Positions 5,136 through 28,436 of a DNA stretch of 30,698 nucleotides are shown in pieces. The notes beneath the pieces were generated by a model. It was not told the DNA's origin, did no database searches, and saw only the letters and a program-made list of their open reading frames with translations. This stretch comes from an uncultured Candidatus Saccharibacteria bacterium (GTDB lineage: Bacteria > Patescibacteriota > Minisyncoccia > UBA6257 > JAKLIH01): NCBI GenBank assembly GCA_964520445.1, contig CAZFNU010000001.1, forward strand, positions 1-30,698, in the 5' to 3' direction. How positions within the stretch are numbered: the stretch's first letter is position 1; every line of letters starts with the position of its first letter. The position numbers and the translations under genes are program-made.

Positions 5136-5295
5136 ATTTTAAAATAAGATATAAAATACAACATTATACTTTCGTAATATATCGGAAGTTTTAGATAGTT
5201 TAGTAGTATAGATATTTGATTTTATACCAAAAATTTGATAGAATATGAAAATACTTGAAAATGTAGTATTTTCAGTACAATTAGCTATATAAATA

Positions 5296-5826
5296 ATGAC
5301 TAAAGACAACTTTTCTAAAATTTATGATACGCATATGACAGAAATTTACCGTTTCTTCTATTTGCGTACTAATCAAAGAGAGCATTCTGAAGAACTAGCT
5401 TCAGAGGCCTTTTTTAAGTTTTGACAACATAATAAGAATAAGACCGAGAATTATATCAAAAATCCCCGGGCCTTTCTTTATCGTATTTCCAGAAACCTCT
5501 TAATAGATCACTTTAGAAAAAATAATCAAAACAAACAAGATATTTCTATTGAAGAATTCAATGATTCCCCAAATTTACCTCGTACCCTTGTTGATGACTC
5601 TTTCCGACAATCAGTAGAGCTAGAAGAAAAACAAAATAAGATAAAGAAAGCCTTACAAAAAATCAACCCAACCTATGCCGATATTATTATCTATTATTTT
5701 ATTGAAGGATTAGATAGCCATGAAATTGCTTCTATCTTAGAAAAAACAGAAAGTAATATCAGAGTTTTAATTCATAGATCTCTGGAATCATTAAAAAAAG
5801 AAATAGGAGAAAATATTGATTTATAA
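5296..5826 (+). CDS. ECF RNA polymerase sigma factor (176 aa, table 4)
   Basis: Region 2 YRFFYLRT..SEELASEAFFKF-W(TGA 5422)..AFLYRISRNLLIDHFRK; region 4 EGLDSHEIASILEKTESNIRVLIHRSL. Missed entirely by the ORF track. Confidence 0.9.
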
Positions 5827-6091: not shown

Positions 6092-6147
6092 CCTATATAT
6101 AGTAAGATAGATAATGAAATTTTTATATATCCTAAATTTATTTAATT

Positions 6148-6723
6148 ATGCAAAAAGAACAACCTAATTCTAATAAAGATAAAACTCCCAAGAAACTATC
6201 TAAGGAGAAAGAGGCTTTAAAATTAAAATTTATAGAATATCTGAAGCAATATAAAGAGGAGATTTATAAAATAGCCTATTACTATGCTAAAAATAAAGAC
6301 GATGCAGAGGATTTAGCGCAGGAAGCCTGTACAAAAGCCTATTGCTATTTCCATACCTTCAAAGAAGGTTCTAGTTTTAAAGCTTGGATGTTTAAAATCA
6401 TAAACAACACATTTAAAGGGATATGAACCAAAAAACAGAAACACGGCACCTCAGAATATATCAAGGGTATAAAGGAAGACCTATATAAATTCCAAGACAA
6501 AGATCGGCTAGAGGACCAATTAATAAGTATTGATATTAATCTTTTAAAGAAAAAAATAACTACATTACCCAAAGAATTTAAAGAAGTCATAACCCTGTAT
6601 GACATTCAAGGATTATCCTATGAAGAAATTGCCCAAAAAATAAATATAAATATAGGTACAGTAAGATCTCGACTACACCGAGCTAGAGCAATTTTGAAAG
6701 AACAGATAGGAAATGACATATAG
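6148..6723 (+). CDS. ECF RNA polymerase sigma factor (191 aa, table 4)
   Basis: DAEDLAQEACTKAY, SFKAWMFKIINNTF, TGA 6424 read through, then region 4 QGLSYEEIAQKININIGTVRSRLHRAR; TAG 6721-6723. Confidence 0.92.
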
Positions 6724-6725
6724 AG

Positions 6726-6765
6726 CTGTAACAAATTCTCCTAATATACGTCTACATTTATAGCT
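6726..6765 (+). repeat. 40-bp direct repeat copy 1, containing an ECF-type promoter TGTAAC-N16-CGTC
   Basis: 37/40 identical to 7309-7348. The AAC-N16-CGTC spacing matches SigM/W/X-like ECF promoters. Confidence 0.85.
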
Positions 6766-6793
6766 TAAAATATATTATTTTAACATATCAATC

Positions 6794-7075
6794 ATGAAAA
6801 AAACAAAAAAAGTAATTAAAAAACAAACAAAAAAGATTTTGGAATATACTGCTGTATTTGAAAGGGAAGAAGACGGAAAATATACAGTTCGTTTTCCTAG
6901 CTTACCAGGGTGCTTTACTTATGGGAATAACTTAAAACATGCTCATGAAATGGCCAAGGAAGTTTTGGAATTATGATTAGAAGTACTAGAAGAGAACAAA
7001 AAGCCAATTCCGATTGAACGTAAGAATGTTATTGCCTGTATTAGTAAACTAAAAGTTTCTTTAGTCAAAAACTAA
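6794..7075 (+). CDS. hicB: HicB-family antitoxin (short form, 93 aa)
   Basis: YTAVFEREEDGKYTVRFPSLPGCFTYG..HAHEMAKEVLEL-W(TGA 6974)-LE..PIP; no C-terminal DNA-binding domain seen. Confidence 0.9.
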
Positions 7076-12241: not shown

Positions 12242-12332
12242 CGTTTTAAGTATTGATAAAAAATTAAATTTATGATAGGATATATATTATAGGATATATC
12301 AAAAAGTATTTATTAACTTAAAAGATATATAT

Positions 12333-13829
12333 ATGACAAAGAAATTTATTCGAACACTAATTCTGTTGATTTTAGTTCTTGGGTTTAGACAATCAGCCCT
12401 TGCCTTTAATGTAAATGATAATGTTTTTATCAACCAGTCCTATAGTCTAAATGCAGACTCTAATATTAAAACTTTTTTATTGAAATCTACTAACCAGATA
12501 TTATTCTATGCTGATCAAATATGGTGAGCTAGTTTATCAAGTTCTGAACAATCCAATATCGAGGGGAAGATATATATCCTAAGTACTGAATTTGAATATC
12601 ATATTAAGCCAATTTTAAACAATAACTACGGTAAAGAAGCAAACACCATTAATCCCACAGATACAAGATTAATCATAATTCTAACCCCTATGACCGAAGG
12701 GGTTCAAGGATATATCAAAACCAGTGACTTAGTTTTAAAATCAAGTAATAAATTATCTAATGAAGGGAATATAATTTACCTTAATGGGAATAAAATTAAA
12801 ACAGCAGAACCCAATATTATTAATTCCTTTTTAGCCCATGAATTTACTCATCTTATCTCCTATAACCAAAAGTATTTAAAGTATAATGTATCCGAAGATC
12901 TTTGGCTTGAAGAACTAAGAGCTGAGTATGCCCCAACTTTATTAGGATATAACGATAACTGGGACATAAGCTATCTAAAAGTTAGAGCTAGTGATTTTTT
13001 CAAAAACAACACTATTTCTTTTATGGACTGAGATAACACGATGTCTAGTTATTCTAGTATTAACTTATTTGCCACCTACCTTACTGAACAATATGGTAAA
13101 GAAATTTTAATTAATTCTTTACATTCCCCTAAAGTAGGTATTGAATCCTTGAATGCAACATTAGAAAATTTAGGAAATCATGATACTTTTAATCAAATCT
13201 ATCAAAACTGGTTAATTGCTAATATTTTAAACGATTGTACGAATTCTTCTAAGTATTGTTATAAAAACCTTAATCTTAAAAAACTATCTATTATTCCATC
13301 GAATTTTTATCTACCTACTAATAGTGATAGTGCTTTAGCTATCTCTGATACTTTTGTCCCATACATGGCCAAATATCAGAAGATCTCTGGAGGATCTTCT
13401 AACCTTAATTTTGATTTTGAAAACTCTTCTGATAATTTAACCCAGAAAATACCATATATTTTGGTTAACAAAAACGGATCTAAACAACTCTACTTTTTTG
13501 AGTTTCAAAAAACCAAATCTCAAAAAATAGTAATCCCTGATTTTAATAAAGATATAACTACGCTTATCATTGTTCCCTATCTTATTCGTAATGATGATAA
13601 CTACAATATCAGATCCATCTTTAAATGAAGCGTCCAGGCAGGCAATGGTACAGACATACCTAGTCCTGATACAACCATTGTTATACCCCCTACAAAGCCC
13701 GCTACACCGTCTGAAACGACCTCTACCACTACTATAGAACGCCAACAACAGATTATCTTATTACAGACCAGATTAATTACCCTTTTATTAGAATTAATAA
13801 CTTCTTTAAAATCAAGATTGGGGATATAA
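12333..13829 (+). CDS. Secreted zinc metallopeptidase-like protein (HEXXH; 498 aa, table 4)
   Basis: Signal peptide; AHEFTHLI with downstream LWLEELRAEYA; TGA at 12525, 13029, 13626 join four segments; Pro/Thr linker and amphipathic C-terminal helix. Confidence 0.85.
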
Positions 13830-13890
13830 AATCTGACTTTTCTAATTTAACTAACATTAAATTATCTTTATATCAGGTAAAGATATATAT

Positions 13891-13924
13891 CAAAATATGA
13901 CGAGCAATCGCCATATTTTGTTTT
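13891..13924 (+). terminator. Intrinsic terminator with GCAA tetraloop
   Basis: CAAAATATG/CATATTTTG outer stem and CGA-GCAA-TCG inner stem, then T-tract. Confidence 0.6.
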
Positions 13925-13930
13925 CTATGC

Positions 13931-17991: not shown

Positions 17992-18366
17992 TTAAAATCC
18001 AGAATGGTATTTAATATATTCCTTTATTCTTCCCATGTTTTCAATAGTTTGTTCACTTTTAAAATACAATTCAATAAATTCCACGGTATTGTTTTTCTCA
18101 GCAAAGGCATAAATAATCCTAATACCACTATGTGCCCCCTTATTTTTTAAGGCCTTGCAGGCAAATTTTTTAACTACAAAAAAGCAAATACCTTCACAAG
18201 GGAAGCCAGATATTTTAAAAATACCATTATTATCAATTTTATTGATATGAAAATTCTCTATAGCTTGTCTTTTAGCCACTTCTAAATCAGCTTCCAGGGT
18301 TCGGAATTTTTTTGAAAGTTGTTTTAGGTCTTTTAAAAAGCCGTCTGCATATAGATAGTTAATCAT
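17992..18366 (-). CDS. RelE/HigB-like toxin (124 aa)
   Basis: Likely start is ATG 18366, overlapping the antitoxin stop. F.KDLKQL.KKFRTLEADL..VKKFACKALKNKGAHSGIRIIYAF..EFIELYFK is a RelE-superfamily-like pattern. Confidence 0.7.
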   Translation of the reverse strand: MINYLYADGFLKDLKQLSKKFRTLEADLEVAKRQAIENFHINKIDNNGIFKISGFPCEGICFFVVKKFACKALKNKGAHSGIRIIYAFAEKNNTVEFIELYFKSEQTIENMGRIKEYIKYHSGF

Positions 18367-19144
18367 TGTTTTTATCCTGCTTATATATTCGTACCGATGT
18401 ATTACTATCCCTGTAAAATACTCCTTCATAATCTAATTGTTCACTCTGTTTAGCAGAAATCCAAGGAACATCCTTATGGGATAGTTCCGAGAGATCGCTA
18501 GCTGTCATATCTGATAATCTTTGTAGTTCTCAATCAATATGTTCTTGTTCTTGTCCGTTCAAAATACTAAGGTCTATTTTAGTTTCCGGATTAATCAGAT
18601 ATTTAGTTTGGGGGTACTCATAAAAACTACTTTTGATCTTTTCTATTTTTTTATCTTTGATTAGTTCATTTACTACATATTCAAATAAAGGAGGAGTAGG
18701 CCCATGATGGTTTTTAAAATATATTAAACCCATTAACTGCTGTTCATATTTTTCATAGTAATCAAAGTCAATAAAGTATAGTAATTTATATATTACGGTC
18801 ATTCCTACGTTTGGTTTCCCTCCTACCTTTTTTAAGATATAGAGTAAGATTTCTTTGAATTTTTCAACCTTTTCTTCCGGAACGCTAATTCTAGTATCTT
18901 CAGTTTTGTCTTCTTTTTTTTCTTTCTTTATTTCTTTAATACTAACCCCCTCTTTTTCTTGTAACAGATCAACAAGAAAGATATTAAAAAGATTAGCCAA
19001 CTTTTCAGCTTCAGCTATAGTAATATCGTGTTTTCCCATTTCTAATTGAATATATGTAGGCCTGGATATTCCTATCTTTGAGGCCACATATTCTTGGGAT
19101 CAGTTTTGTTTTTTTCTTAATTCTTGAATAAATTTGTAAAGCAT
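18359..19144 (-). CDS. XRE-HTH + Panacea (DUF4065/GepA-like) antitoxin (261 aa, table 4)
   Basis: LRKKQN-W(TGA 19102)-SQEYVASKIGISRPTY HTH; GMTVIYKLLYFIDF..HHGPTP; EHID-W(TGA 18532)-EL..LSELSHKDVPW..LDYEGVFYR; TAA 18359-18361. Confidence 0.9.
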
Positions 19145-19175
19145 AGATATTATTTAGTTTGTTTGATATATATCA

Positions 19176-19216
19176 ATATTAGCATAAGTCAAATTATTTG
19201 TCAATAGTTTTGTCAA
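19176..19216 (-). promoter_or_regulatory. sigma70 promoter with three 12-bp-spaced TTGAC boxes
   Basis: Minus strand TTGACA (19204-19199)-17-TAATAT (19181-19176). TTGAC occurs three times at 12-nt spacing, a possible autoregulatory operator. Confidence 0.6.
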
Positions 19217-19256
19217 TTATCTTTACATTATGGATTAAAGGTCTAATTAATGTGTC

Positions 19257-19286: not shown

Positions 19287-19415
19287 AAAAGGCAAAAATT
19301 GGCGATTGCGAATATCAATAATCGCCAAAAAAGGGAATTTGTGTCAACCCAAATAGAAATGTCATGACTTCGTTCTAGCATTTTGTTCTAAAATATGCTA
19401 AACTGAAATCAATTA

Positions 19416-19486
19416 GGGCCTGTAGTTAAGTGGTATAATAGTACGTTCGCAATGTGCAGTCGCGAGTTCGATTCTCGCTAGGTCCA
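19416..19486 (+). tRNA. tRNA-Ala(CGC)
   Basis: GGGCCTG/TAGGTCC acceptor with the G3:U70 Ala determinant, loop ttCGCaa, GCGAG-TTCGATT-CTCGC T-arm; no encoded CCA. Confidence 0.92.
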
Positions 19487-19516
19487 CACCCCAATAAATT
19501 TCTTTTTCCCAAAAGC

Positions 19517-19545
19517 TTGACTTTTGTATCTTTATATGATAGATT
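19517..19545 (+). promoter_or_regulatory. sigma70-type promoter of the candidate sRNA
   Basis: TTGACT-17-TAGATT with extended TG. Confidence 0.55.
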
Positions 19546-19551
19546 AAAGAT

Positions 19552-19630
19552 ACTTAAGTAGCAATACTTAGGTTACATTAAATAGCAATATTTAATGGGG
19601 AAATAAACCAAGCAATTGGTTTGTTTTTTT
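19552..19630 (+). ncRNA. Candidate ~79-nt sRNA with three GCAA-capped hairpins
   Basis: Promoter, then CTTAAGTA-GCAA-TACTTAGG, CATTAAATA-GCAA-TATTTAATG, AAACCAA-GCAA-TTGGTTT and a T7 tail. Confidence 0.6.
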
Positions 19631-19668
19631 ATTTGTGTCTTTTTTATCAAAATCATACACTGATATCC

Positions 19669-19697
19669 TTGACTTAAGAATACTAGTATGCTATACT
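19669..19697 (+). promoter_or_regulatory. sigma70-type promoter
   Basis: TTGACT-17-TATACT with extended TG, upstream of the CAP/sortase operon. Confidence 0.7.
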
Positions 19698-19729
19698 AGA
19701 AGTAATAAAATATTTGAATTACAATTAAA

Positions 19730-20836
19730 ATGGCAACCTTTAATCATAAACCAAAAACCAAAATACCCCTATTTCTTCGTAACGGGTTTTTAGTCTTTAT
19801 TGTTTTTTTCTTCATTTTTTCCCGATTTATCATGGGATTAAATGTTTTAGTATTAAAGAATTTTCGTCTATTTGCGGATGTAACTATTCAAGATCTTTTA
19901 ACCTTAGTTAATCAAGAAAGACAAAGAGAAGGGTTAACCCCACTAGCCGAAAATACCAAATTAGACCAAGCAGCTTTTCTAAAAGCTCAGGACATGATTT
20001 CTAATGATTATTTCGCCCATTATAGTCCCCAAGGAACTTCTCCTTGATACTGGTTTGATCAAGCTGGGTACTATTATCAATATGCCGGAGAGAACTTAGC
20101 TATGAACTTTTTTGATTCACAAGAGGCAGTCACTGCCTGGATGAACTCGCCTTTACATCGAGAAAACATTCTAAATAAAAACTACACAGAAACTGGCATT
20201 GCTGTAATAAAAAGTAAAACTCCTAACAGTGATGAAGAAAAAATTATCTTAGTTCAAACCTTTGGTAGCCAACTTAAATCAAAACTAGCTTCTGTAAAGA
20301 CAGTTAGTACAACAAAACCAAGCCAAAAAGTCACTTCACGTACTACTACCACTACTATTAGAGAAACTACTACTACTTTAAACAATGTAACTACTACCAT
20401 ACCAACAGAAGTTTTAGGGTTAACAGAAAATAATACTAAATTACCACCATCTGATATACGGACTGAAAAAGAAGTAGTAGAGGTTATCAAACAAACCGTA
20501 ATTACTGATAAACAGCGAGAAGAATTAGGAAAATTAGAATTCCAAAGAACAGCTCTTTCTAACAATGTACCTGAAAAAACCTGATTCCAATATCATGCTA
20601 CTGCTATTTTTAATAACAATATTTTTAAGCTTATTAACCAGAGTTCCGGGGTTACTTTAATTTTCTTAAGTACAGTTGGTTTATTTAGTATTGGGAAATC
20701 TAGGGAATTTAGTTTTGGTACTAGAAAAATACTGTATACTCGTAATGCTATTTTAGGAGCCATGGGTGCTGGGTTTTTAATTATTCAACCAACAATCCTA
20801 TTCGGGAGTACTATTATTCCAAAAGTTTTAAAATAG
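19730..20836 (+). CDS. CAP/SCP-domain membrane protein (368 aa, table 4)
   Basis: N-terminal TM; VNQERQREGL..KAQDM..YFAH.SPQGTSP-W(TGA 20045)-YW(TGG)F..GY.YQYAGENLA..WMNSPLHRENIL; Thr linker; TGA 20582; C-terminal TMs; TAG 20834. Confidence 0.93.
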
Positions 20837-26874: not shown

Positions 26875-26946
26875 TCCGCGGTAGTTGAGTGGTACAACGC
26901 CTCCCTGTTAAGGAGGATTTCGCAGGTTCGAGTCCTGCCCGCGGAG
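26875..26946 (+). tRNA. tRNA-Asn(GTT), probable integration site
   Basis: TCCGCGG/CCGCGGA acceptor, CCTCC-ctGTTaa-GGAGG anticodon arm, GCAGG-TTCGAGT-CCTGC T-arm. Confidence 0.95.
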
Positions 26947-28410
26947 CATTGTAGGACAGTTGTTAAATTTGAGCATAGTATTAAACGGTTCTCGTACCGT
27001 GAATACTAGCTCTTTTTCTTTTAACTGAAGGTTCTGAAGTACGAAACTTAGAAGTTGCTTTTTCTCTTCCACTTCAGAACTTTCAAATATTTCTCTAGCT
27101 CTCTTAGCTAAATTAAGCACCAAACTAGCGGTTATATAGAAATTTTCATCTGCATTGGTGTGTCTCGACATTTCTTCTTGTATATCTGCTTGTTTATTTT
27201 TTCATTCTTTTAATTTAGCATTAAATACATCAGGAGGGATCTGTCCGTCAGCTAATAAATTAAAAGCATTGCTTATTCTGGTATCTATTTGGCTATACTC
27301 CTTTTGTAAATTGTCTAAAGCTAATTGATGAAATTTATTTTTAGATTCATTAGTACTCTTTAAGTTTTCTGTTATTTTATTTATTTGATCATCCGTGAAT
27401 TTCATATTATCTAAAACATTATATATCGGAGTCAAAAGATCTTCTTCTTTACAGTACAATACTTTCTTATGAAGTCTCCTATAATTTGTACAATGATAAT
27501 AATGATGACCCTTAGAAGTTTCAGGAGTTATCATACAGCCACATTCTGAACAGGTGATCATTCCTCTGAAAATATATGGTTTGGCTGCATAATGAAAGGG
27601 TTTCTTGTGATAACCTAATGATACGGCTTGGCATCTATTAAACAAATCTTTACTAATTAAGGGCTCATATTTATGAGGGTATAATTGATCTTTAATTTTC
27701 ATAACTCCATAATAAAACGGGTTATTAATTATTTTGTGTATCATACTCTTGGGTAAGGGATTATGTACTTCGGTATTTCCAGTTAGTCCCATAGTTTCCA
27801 TTTCTTTTGTAATATCTAATAATGAATAATTCCCCGTAGCATACATTTCAAATATTCTAATGATATATGATGCTCTTTCTGGATCTGGAATTACATCTTT
27901 ATCTTCGTTTTTTGTGCTTATATAGCCAATAGGGGACTTTCCAATTCATTCTCCATTTTTAATTTTATTTTCATAAGCCCTTTTAACACTATCACTAATA
28001 GAATCTGAATAATATTTAGCCAAGCTTACACCTATAGTAAACCTAAATAAATCAGTAGCAGGTGAGTCTTTAGTTAATATTATATTATCTGAAGGGAAAT
28101 GAAGCTCTATTTTGCCCTCTTTCCTTAATTCTTCCAATGTAACTAATTCTTTTGTAAAATTTCTTATCAATCTATCAATTTTATCGCAACATAAGGAAAG
28201 AGGCTCTTTAGAAGTTTTTAATGTTTCCACAACTTTGCTAAATTCTTCCCGTTCTGTTTTGAAAGCACTTTCATCGAAACTTAACTCTTTTGCAATAACG
28301 AGATTCTTTTCTATGGCATATTTTCTTAATCTTAATACTTGAGCTGGCAAAGAATTTCCCGCTTCTTTTTGTTCTTCAGTTGAAACTCTTGCCAATAGTA
28401 TAGCTTTCAT
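26908..28410 (-). CDS. Large serine recombinase (resolvase + recombinase + Zn-ribbon; 500 aa, table 4)
   Basis: MKAILLARVSTEEQ..SLPAQ catalytic Ser motif; KIDRLIRN; NGE-W(TGA 27948)-IGKSPIGY; NNPFYYG; CSECGC..YYHC Zn ribbon; second TGA 27204; ends LRGQDSNLRNPP* antisense to tRNA-Asn. Confidence 0.93.
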
Positions 28411-28436
28411 ATTTTTAATTTAGTATTTTAATTAAA

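What the first reader, a model, noticed from the sequence alone, without database searches (positions are those of the whole stretch)
19517..19630. Promoter-to-terminator sRNA built from three GCAA-tetraloop hairpins
Seen: TTGACT-17-TAGATT promoter, then from about +1 three back-to-back stems of 8, 9 and 7 bp, each capped by the identical GNRA loop GCAA, the last followed by U7. There is no ORF, and a separate promoter (19669) serves the next gene. The stems differ in sequence, so this is not a simple tandem duplication. It does not resemble tRNA, SRP, 6S, tmRNA or a riboswitch that I recognise. Inference: a ~79-nt standalone RNA, perhaps a multivalent protein sponge/decoy.
Basis: partly seen in the sequence, partly recalled or inferred. 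Interest (0 to 1): 0.72.

Follow-up and report, generated by a model that had tools for sequence, protein, structure and literature searches.

The report
Conserved three-hairpin small RNA gene
A roughly 79-base RNA gene with its own promoter, three hairpins capped by GNRA tetraloops and a terminator is conserved as one unit in four related uncultivated Patescibacteria species; it matches no known RNA family, no transcript data exist and its function is unknown.

Summary
TTGACT-17-TGaTAGATT (19517-19545) is followed by three hairpins: 19552-19573, 19576-19597 and 19598-19629. Each is capped by GCAA, and a run of seven T follows (19624-19630). The + strand folds far better than shuffles (z = -6.9). 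No Rfam family matches.

I found homologues in four related species of TGA=Trp Patescibacteria. The whole unit, from -35 to terminator, is kept. It sits in two different genomic places, and one species has two copies.
- Promoter: the -35 hexamer, the extended -10 TG and -10 positions 1, 2 and 6 are conserved, while the spacer drifts.
- Hairpin 1 is invariant in sequence.
- Hairpins 2 and 3 carry nine positions with compensatory changes and no broken core pair.
- G·U pairs fit only the + strand.
- The loops stay GNRA (one is GUAA).

This supports an independent structured small RNA gene rather than stacked tRNA terminators, although in this window it probably also terminates tRNA-Ala transcription. 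No RNA-seq data could be found, so transcription is inferred. The "protein sponge" idea is untested. The family is narrow: it is absent from more distant relatives, from 118 other Patescibacteria tRNA-Ala loci and from the viral collections searched.

The parts
19517..19522 (+). -35 hexamer TTGACT of the element's own promoter
   Evidence: TTGACT followed by TTTT is invariant in the window, L237 and L244.
19537..19545 (+). Extended -10, TGaTAGATT
   Evidence: Homologues have TGaTAAATT (L237), TGaTAATGT (L244) and TGaTAGTAT (L245). The TG and -10 positions 1, 2 and 6 are conserved, while only 10 of 17 spacer positions match between the window and L244.
19552..19573 (+). Hairpin 1: 9 bp plus a GCAA tetraloop. 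It begins at the predicted transcription start, 6-7 nt after the -10.
   Evidence: The sequence is invariant in all six copies, including a U·G pair. The only changes are A-U to G·U in strain L001 and loop GCAA to GUAA in L245.
19576..19597 (+). Hairpin 2: 9 bp plus a GCAA tetraloop
   Evidence: Five stem positions show changes on both sides across homologues, with no unpaired cell. The loop-proximal UA-GCAA-UA is invariant.
19598..19630 (+). Hairpin 3, the intrinsic terminator: 7-bp core 19605-19611/19616-19622, GCAA loop 19612-19615, stem extended by A-tract/U-tract pairing, T7 run 19624-19630
   Evidence: Four core positions covary and the T-run of 7-8 is invariant. The terminator scan did not call it because the core has only 2 G-C pairs.
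19416..19487 (+). Context: tRNA-Ala(CGC). It has no terminator of its own before the element, so its primary transcript probably ends at hairpin 3.
   Evidence: No hairpin lies between 19488 and 19551.
19669..19697 (+). Context: separate promoter TTGACT-17-TGcTATACT of the downstream CAP-sortase genes
   Evidence: 10 of 12 matches, with TG. The CAP domain was identified.
13833..13928 (+). Probable diverged paralogue, 'element B', downstream of the gene at 12279-13826. It has a weak A-like promoter, a hairpin with loop AUCAG (13863-13885) and a GCAA-capped terminator-like hairpin (13891-13920).
   Evidence: The model built from the element scores 35.7 bits here and 34.9-36.5 bits at the same position in L237 and L245. 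The loops are conserved and the stems differ.

Best explanation
This is an independent gene for a small, almost fully base-paired non-coding RNA of about 79 nt (19552-19630, + strand).

A sigma-70-type extended -10 promoter starts transcription at the foot of hairpin 1. Hairpin 3 with its U-run terminates it. The unit from -35 to terminator is inherited, duplicated and relocated as one piece in a narrow clade of TGA=Trp Patescibacteria.

Shown:
- the anatomy;
- conservation of the promoter signals;
- strand-specific covariation in hairpins 2 and 3;
- invariance of hairpin 1 and of the three GNRA loops;
- occurrence in two genomic contexts.

Inferred:
- It is transcribed.
- It acts in trans.
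- With only a 2-nt linker and three 4-nt loops left single-stranded, it probably does not work by antisense seed pairing. More likely it presents the invariant hairpin 1 and three A-GNAA-U loops to a partner, either a protein or an RNA tetraloop receptor, as a decoy or scaffold.
- In this window it also serves as the terminator for the upstream tRNA-Ala.
For: Anatomy and fold. All homologues adopt the same three-hairpin fold, with z from -6 to -9.

Homologues:
- L237 has the same synteny as the window.
- L244, L245 and L246 carry the element upstream of a different gene, the homologue of window 12279-13826.
- L245 and L237 are 99.2% identical over 1310 nt, so that species has two copies.
- The window has nothing upstream of its 12279 gene. 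The element is therefore not needed in cis for that gene, yet at least one copy is kept in every one of the four species.

Covariation:
- 98.9% of 188 cells are paired, against 35-55% when partners are slid.
- Seven pairs change on both sides, and 0 of 500 shuffles reach the observed values.
- In a manual register, nine positions covary and no core pair is broken.
- The U·G and G·U pairs would be A·C mismatches on the - strand, and the - strand folds poorly.

Promoter:
- The -35, the TG and -10 positions 1, 2 and 6 are kept while the spacer diverges.
- The same TGnTAnnnT type is seen at the tRNA-Ala, CAP and 12279-gene promoters.

Other points:
- No Rfam family matches.
- Ordinary terminators in the window are single hairpins richer in G+C.
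Against: - No transcript evidence. The only metatranscriptome holding this organism is stored as contigs. It covers part of the CAP gene but not the element, which is uninformative for an 80-nt RNA. No other RNA runs are available.
- Only five independent sequences from four closely related species. The shuffle control does not account for relatedness.
- The flanking intergenic DNA between the window and L237 is itself about 93% identical, so the identity of hairpins 1 and 3 between those two says little.
- No partner protein was identified. No RNA-binding gene lies nearby.
- The element is absent from more distant relatives, so it is not a core function.
- Template switching within palindromes can produce compensatory changes without selection on RNA.
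Confidence: 0.6

Rival explanations
1. A purely cis-acting 3' module. Hairpin 3 terminates transcription coming from upstream (tRNA-Ala here), and hairpins 1 and 2 are extra stabilising or insulating stem-loops. The 'promoter' is irrelevant.
For: No other terminator lies between tRNA-Ala and the element, so tRNA-Ala transcripts probably do end at hairpin 3. A related contig has an ordinary gene terminator with a very similar GCAA-capped stem (L237:1259-1300). Promoter-like matches are common in this AT-rich DNA.
Against: In L244, L245 and L246 the element is not behind a tRNA. The -35, TG and key -10 positions are conserved while the spacer drifts. The distance from the -10 to hairpin 1 is 6 nt in all four copies whose -10 is present. 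Hairpins 1 and 2 have no U-tract. Hairpin 1 is invariant in sequence, which a mere stabiliser does not require. Other terminators in the window are single hairpins.
Confidence: 0.15
2. A cis-regulatory leader for the downstream secreted-protein genes (the metallopeptidase-like gene or the CAP-sortase genes). Promoter-proximal hairpins would be bound by an antiterminator, or would act on RNA polymerase as phage nut or put sites do, so that read-through of hairpin 3 is regulated.
For: In every copy a gene for a secreted or surface protein follows on the same strand within 40-210 nt. GNRA-type hairpins placed directly after a promoter resemble lambda boxB and HK022 put RNAs (my own knowledge, not tested).
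Against: The downstream genes have their own conserved extended -10 promoters. In the window the 12279 gene lacks the element altogether. No alternative antiterminator pairing with hairpin 3 exists in the predicted ensemble; the MFE structure equals the centroid. In L237 about 170 nt of gene remnant separate the terminator from the CAP promoter. There is no phage context.
Confidence: 0.12
3. A DNA-level palindromic repeat, such as a REP/BIME- or MITE-like element or a recombination site, that spreads within the genome. Hairpin conservation would reflect DNA cruciform or protein recognition.
For: One species has two copies about 4 kb apart. The copy behind tRNA-Ala replaced most of a PIG-L gene. 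A third, diverged relative (element B) lies nearby. Each arm of hairpin 1 is itself the palindrome ACTTAAGT or a near-palindrome.
Against: Only 1-2 copies occur per 10-50 kb, and there are none elsewhere in the window. No other copies at 85% identity or more appear in the source metagenomes. The conserved U·G and G·U pairs fit one strand only. The stems of hairpins 2 and 3 differ between species while the loops stay fixed, which is the opposite of a protein-bound DNA site. There are no terminal repeats, target duplications or transposase. The duplicated unit includes a working-looking promoter and terminator.
Confidence: 0.06
4. A short guide-RNA or antitoxin array: a TIGR array, a CRISPR-like array, or a type III toxin-antitoxin RNA.
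For: The units are tandem and short, run from a promoter to a terminator, and lie in a CPR bacterium. TIGR arrays are reported from CPR (PMC12045711).
Against: TIGR units are 36 nt, with alternating edge and loop repeats, 9-nt spacers that are not complementary to each other, UG...CCA box motifs and an adjacent Nop-domain gene. Here the units are 24-nt perfect hairpins with 4-nt loops. The 'spacers' are conserved across species. No Nop, Cas or ToxN-like gene is in the window.
Confidence: 0.02

Closest known systems
CsrB/RsmZ-type protein-sequestering sRNAs (and CrcZ)
   Same: A stand-alone gene with its own promoter and intrinsic terminator. Several hairpins display the same short motif in their loops. 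There is little single-stranded seed sequence.
   Different: The repeated motif is a GNRA tetraloop (A-GCAA-U), not GGA or a CA-rich motif. There are only three hairpins. No CsrA, Hfq or Crc link is known, and binding is entirely untested.
Intrinsic (Rho-independent) terminators, including tandem terminators
   Same: Hairpin 3 is a stem with a GNRA loop followed by U7-8. It very likely terminates both the element's own transcript and that of tRNA-Ala.
   Different: Hairpins 1 and 2 lack U-tracts. The unit carries its own conserved promoter, hairpin 1 is invariant in sequence, and the unit occurs where there is no upstream gene to terminate.
Phage promoter-proximal antitermination RNAs (lambda nut boxB; HK022 put)
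   Same: Stem-loops with a GNRA-type fold lie immediately downstream of a promoter. Two hairpins are separated by 1-2 nt, as in put.
   Different: There is no phage context. These are true tetraloops rather than the boxB pentaloop. No boxA or N-like protein is present, and a strong terminator follows at once with separate promoters beyond it. The resemblance is recalled from memory and was not tested.
TIGR-Tas tandem interspaced guide RNA arrays (PMC12045711)
   Same: A tandem array of short RNA units ending in a terminator, reported from CPR bacteria.
   Different: The unit size, repeat and spacer logic, box C/D motifs and the Nop-domain partner are all absent.
Type III antitoxin RNAs (ToxI-like)
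   Same: The layout: promoter, short repeated RNA units, terminator, then a downstream gene.
   Different: The units are hairpins of differing sequence, not 34-36-nt direct repeats. The downstream genes encode secreted proteins, not ToxN-type RNases.

Membership tests
Any Rfam 15 family | Covariance-model score at or above the gathering threshold | tested here: not met
   At gathering thresholds only three tRNAs match in the window. In the permissive scan of 19350-19750 nothing on the element scores above 18 bits or reaches E below 3, against gathering cut-offs of 52-98 bits.
Intrinsic terminator (hairpin 3 only) | A stable stem-loop followed directly by a U-run | tested here: met
   The stem has 7-14 bp with a GCAA loop, followed by T7 at 19624-19630. 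The T-run of 7-8 is kept in all homologues. The consensus scan missed it only because the core has 2 rather than 3 G-C pairs.
Bacterial stand-alone sRNA gene | Own promoter and own terminator, no ORF, conserved as a unit independent of its neighbours | tested here: met
   Promoter signals are conserved. The unit occurs in two genomic contexts, and twice in one species. No ORF is conserved.
Bacterial stand-alone sRNA gene | A detectable discrete transcript | not testable with these tools
   No usable RNA runs exist.
CsrB/RsmZ sponge RNAs | Multiple GGA motifs in hairpin loops | tested here: not met
   The loops are GCAA or GUAA. None contains GGA.
CsrB/RsmZ sponge RNAs | A cognate CsrA/RsmA protein encoded in the genome and bound by the RNA | not testable with these tools
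   Only about 30-50 kb of the genome is available, and no CsrA is in the window.
TIGR array | [quoted passage not shown] | tested here: not met
   The units are 24-28 nt with self-complementary arms, 4-nt loops and no UG...CCA (compared).
TIGR array | An adjacent Nop-domain Tas gene | tested here: not met
   Pfam scans of the neighbouring and other window ORFs show no Nop domain.
ANTAR two-hairpin antiterminator target | Two hairpins with hexaloops carrying A at position 1 and G at position 4, the second hairpin overlapping the 5' arm of the terminator | tested here: not met
   The loops are tetraloops. Even with the closing pair opened, the hexaloop AGCAAU has A at position 4. Hairpin 2 abuts hairpin 3 but does not overlap it. 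The defining features are recalled from my own knowledge.
REP/BIME-type repeated palindromes | Many dispersed copies per genome, with an associated RAYT transposase | tested here: not met
   The window (30.7 kb) has one copy, and other contigs have one each. No partial matches appear in the source metagenomes. A whole genome was not available.

The most novel reading that the evidence does not exclude
A new class of multivalent decoy or scaffold RNA. It would be a minimal, almost fully double-stranded sRNA whose three GNRA tetraloops and one invariant hairpin titrate or assemble a tetraloop-recognising partner. That partner could be a protein or an RNA helix receptor, for example on the ribosome. 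It would occur in reduced-genome Patescibacteria, which lack most known sRNA chaperones.
Probability: 0.2. Interest if true: 0.75.

Novelty: new member of a known kind. Interest (0 to 1): 0.5.

Why it matters
I am not aware of any sRNA described in Patescibacteria (CPR); my literature check was a single search. These bacteria have tiny genomes and are not cultivated.

This element is compact and has covariation support, a clean promoter and a clean terminator. It is therefore a ready test case: it can be synthesised, probed and used as bait for its partner. Its design is three identical GNRA loops, one invariant hairpin and almost no single-stranded RNA. That design argues against the usual antisense mechanism.

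If it proves to be a decoy or scaffold, it would extend the sponge-RNA principle to tetraloop recognition. If it proves to be only a terminator module, it still documents how a promoter-terminator cassette moves and replaces a gene, here PIG-L.

Tried and rejected
- Rfam, at gathering and permissive thresholds: nothing.
- tRNA-anchored scan of GTDB species genomes with the 3' half of tRNA-Ala: 118 Patescibacteria loci, none with the element. All were distant relatives, so this shows only that the element is not a general tRNA-Ala trailer.
- Loose structural pattern in IMG/VR: more than 117 hits, all chance matches or tandem repeats.
- Exact hairpin-1 probe in IMG/VR, and blastn against phage genomes: nothing.
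- tRNA 5'-half probe in JGI metagenomes: only two contigs. One of them, L244, unexpectedly carried the element 7.4 kb from the tRNA.
- RNA evidence: one metatranscriptome, held as contigs only, was uninformative. Two RNA-run searches returned none. DNA runs with related strains gave only tRNA fragments.
- My interim idea that the promoter was an orphaned PIG-L promoter capped by terminators. I dropped it when L244 and L245 showed the same promoter-hairpin unit at another locus while PIG-L kept its own promoter.
- TIGR arrays, type III antitoxins, ANTAR targets and REP elements: rejected on anatomy (see the membership table).
- More distant homologues of the neighbouring gene (45-55% identity): no element.
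- Not done: target prediction by complementarity. The RNA has almost no unpaired bases and the genome is AT-rich, so hits would be uninterpretable.

Full report
**What is there**

- The promoter is TTGACT (19517-19522), a 17-nt spacer ending in TGa, and TAGATT (19540-19545).
- Six bases later, three hairpins follow one another.
  - HP1 is 19552-19573: 9 bp including one U·G, loop GCAA.
  - HP2 is 19576-19597: 9 bp, loop GCAA.
  - HP3 has a 7-bp core (19605-19611 with 19616-19622) and loop GCAA. A-tract/U-tract and G·U pairs extend it to 14 pairs (19598-19629).
- A run of seven T ends at 19630.

The + strand folds to exactly this structure at -27.7 kcal/mol, with z = -6.9 and none of 200 shuffles as good. 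The - strand reaches only -14.6 kcal/mol.

No other GCAA-capped hairpin with 6 or more contiguous pairs occurs in the window. The window's ordinary terminators are single hairpins richer in G+C, with other loops. Rfam gives no match at either the gathering or the permissive threshold.

**The organism**

- The window has 32% G+C, and its ORFs fuse when TGA is read as sense.
- TGA codons in the CAP gene and in the gene at 12279-13826 align with invariant Trp in standard-code homologues. The code is therefore TGA = Trp.
- Named protein homologues are annotated as Pacebacteria, Nealsonbacteria or Parcubacteria.
- The 3' half of the tRNA-Ala recurs in 118 loci of GTDB species genomes. Nearly all of the 80 listed are titled Patescibacteria or one of its lineages.
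- The source is sludge or wastewater metagenomes.

**Neighbours**

| Position | Strand | Feature |
|---|---|---|
| 17995-18432 | - | ORF with no Pfam match, overlapping the antitoxin gene; possibly its toxin |
| 18362-19153 | - | HTH plus SocA/Panacea antitoxin gene |
| 19416-19487 | + | tRNA-Ala(CGC) |
| 19517-19630 | + | the element |
| from 19669 | + | separate promoter, then a CAP-domain gene, a sortase and a large surface protein |

Pfam scans of 16 window ORFs found no Nop-domain, Cas-like or ToxN-like protein and no RNA-binding domain.

**Homologues**

CAP homologues led to L237, whose CAP is 68% identical at the protein level. It has the same order: antitoxin, tRNA-Ala, element, CAP, sortase.

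A probe for the tRNA 5' half found L244 in JGI metagenomes. There the tRNA-Ala is followed by a PIG-L gene. The element lies 7.4 kb away, directly upstream of the homologue of window gene 12279-13826, a secreted protein with an HExxH motif.

Homologues of that gene then gave two more copies in the same upstream position: L245, and L246, which is cut at its 5' end by the contig edge.

L245 and L237 are 99.2% identical over 1310 nt. That species therefore has two copies, one upstream of the HExxH gene and one behind tRNA-Ala. The window has only the copy behind tRNA-Ala, and nothing lies upstream of its 12279 gene. L244 and L246 show only the other copy.

L237 still carries the last codons of the lost PIG-L gene between the element's terminator and the CAP promoter. 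I infer that the copy behind tRNA-Ala arose by duplication of the whole unit from -35 to terminator, and that it replaced most of PIG-L.

More distant relatives lack the element:
- contigs whose HExxH gene is 45-55% identical;
- the 118 other tRNA-Ala loci;
- IMG/VR contigs and phage genomes.

**Evidence that it is a functional RNA on the + strand**

All copies fold to the same three hairpins, with z from -6 to -9.

On the model-based alignment of six sequences:
- 98.9% of 188 cells form standard pairs;
- the figure is 35-55% when partners are slid by 1-3 columns;
- seven pairs change on both sides;
- none of 500 shuffles reaches the observed values.

In a manual register, anchored on the loops:
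- HP2 has five covarying positions and HP3 has four;
- no core pair is broken;
- the only unpaired cells lie in the outer A/U-tract of HP3 in L245.

HP1 is invariant in sequence in all six copies, including its U·G pair. Its only changes are A-U to G·U in strain L001 and loop GCAA to GUAA in L245, which is still GNRA. The loop-proximal UA-GNAA-UA of HP1 and HP2 and the A-GCAA-U of HP3 never change. The several U·G and G·U pairs would be A·C mismatches on the opposite strand.

**Evidence for the promoter**

TTGACT followed by TTTT is invariant. The -10 reads TAGATT, TAAATT, TAATGT or TAGTAT, so the TG and positions 1, 2 and 6 are kept. Only 10 of 17 spacer positions match between the window and L244. 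The -10 always ends 6 nt before HP1. The same TGnTAnnnT form appears at the promoters of tRNA-Ala, CAP, PIG-L and the HExxH gene. It looks like the standard promoter type of these organisms.

**Caveats**

- There are only five independent sequences, from four closely related species.
- Between the window and L237 the flanking intergenic DNA is itself about 93% identical. The weight therefore rests on HP2 in that pair and on L244 and L246.
- No expression data exist. The one metatranscriptome with this organism is stored as contigs. It covers part of CAP but not the element. Further RNA-run searches returned nothing.

**Interpretation**

The best reading is an independent gene for a ~79-nt structured RNA. 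Four observations favour action in trans:
- at least one copy is kept in all four species;
- copies are duplicated and lost between two sites;
- the window's HExxH gene has no copy upstream of it;
- every downstream gene has its own promoter.

All but a 2-nt linker and three tetraloops is base-paired, so a classical seed-pairing mechanism is unlikely. The invariant HP1 and the three identical GNRA loops are the plausible contact surfaces.

In the window the element probably also terminates tRNA-Ala transcription, because no other terminator lies in between.

I give lower weight to the rivals, for the reasons set out in their entries. They are a pure terminator or insulator module, a cis leader or antitermination element, a palindromic DNA repeat, and a TIGR or type III antitoxin array. 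TIGR arrays were checked against their published definition (PMC12045711) and do not fit.

**Verdict**

- It is a new RNA family of a known kind, a bacterial sRNA gene, with a narrow phylogenetic range.
- Interest is moderate, at 0.5.

Noticed in passing
window 12279-13826, 19730-20833 and other ORFs: TGA is a sense codon that aligns with invariant Trp in standard-code homologues, so this is a code-4-like TGA=Trp. The genome otherwise looks like Patescibacteria/Paceibacteria. To my knowledge, the recoded CPR lineages usually cited (Gracilibacteria, Absconditabacteria) read TGA as Gly.
   Followed up: partly
window 13833-13928; L237:1199-1300; L245:1693-1782: A second small conserved unit, 'element B', lies just downstream of the HExxH gene. 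In L237 it has an A-like promoter (TTGACTTTTAAA...TGaTATATT). It has a hairpin with conserved loop AUCAG and a GCAA-capped terminator hairpin with core CGAGCAAUCG. The stems differ between species. It is probably a diverged paralogue or a second sRNA, and it is absent in L244.
   Followed up: partly
window 19553 and 19673, compared with L001: The near-identical strain L001 has lost both CTTAAG sites in the overlapping 1.1 kb. Both became CTTAGG, and L001 has none in 3.1 kb. The window has 5 sites against about 10 expected. This may be restriction-site avoidance. One of the two changes is the A-U to G·U change in hairpin 1.
   Followed up: partly
window 19631-19700; L237:4297-4480; L239:3690-4560: Relatives have a PIG-L family gene between tRNA-Ala and CAP. 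L237 keeps only its last codons (..LAFYRQNEIFLT*). In the window, the -35 region of the CAP promoter (CTGATATCCTTGACT) looks like the remnant of that gene's 3' end.
   Followed up: partly
window 19347-19366; L243:1-20; L244:76-94 (inverted): The motif ACCCAAATAGAAATGTCAT lies about 20 nt upstream of the tRNA-Ala promoter in the window and in L243. It recurs inverted upstream of the element in L244, next to what looks like a divergent promoter. It may be a regulator site or an UP-like element.
   Followed up: no
window 19175-19207: A 33-nt stretch lies in the presumed promoter/operator region of the antitoxin operon, which also holds two TTGTCAAT repeats (19202-19209 and 19213-19220). Otherwise unrelated contigs match it in two DNA runs and, at higher depth, in the metatranscriptome run X5.
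   Followed up: no
window 26875-28419: A large serine recombinase gene on the - strand abuts tRNA-Asn. Together with several toxin-antitoxin genes (HicB-like at 6764-7072, SocA/Panacea at 18362-19153) and two ECF sigma factor genes (5293-5823 and 6136-6720), it suggests a mosaic region rich in mobile elements.
   Followed up: no
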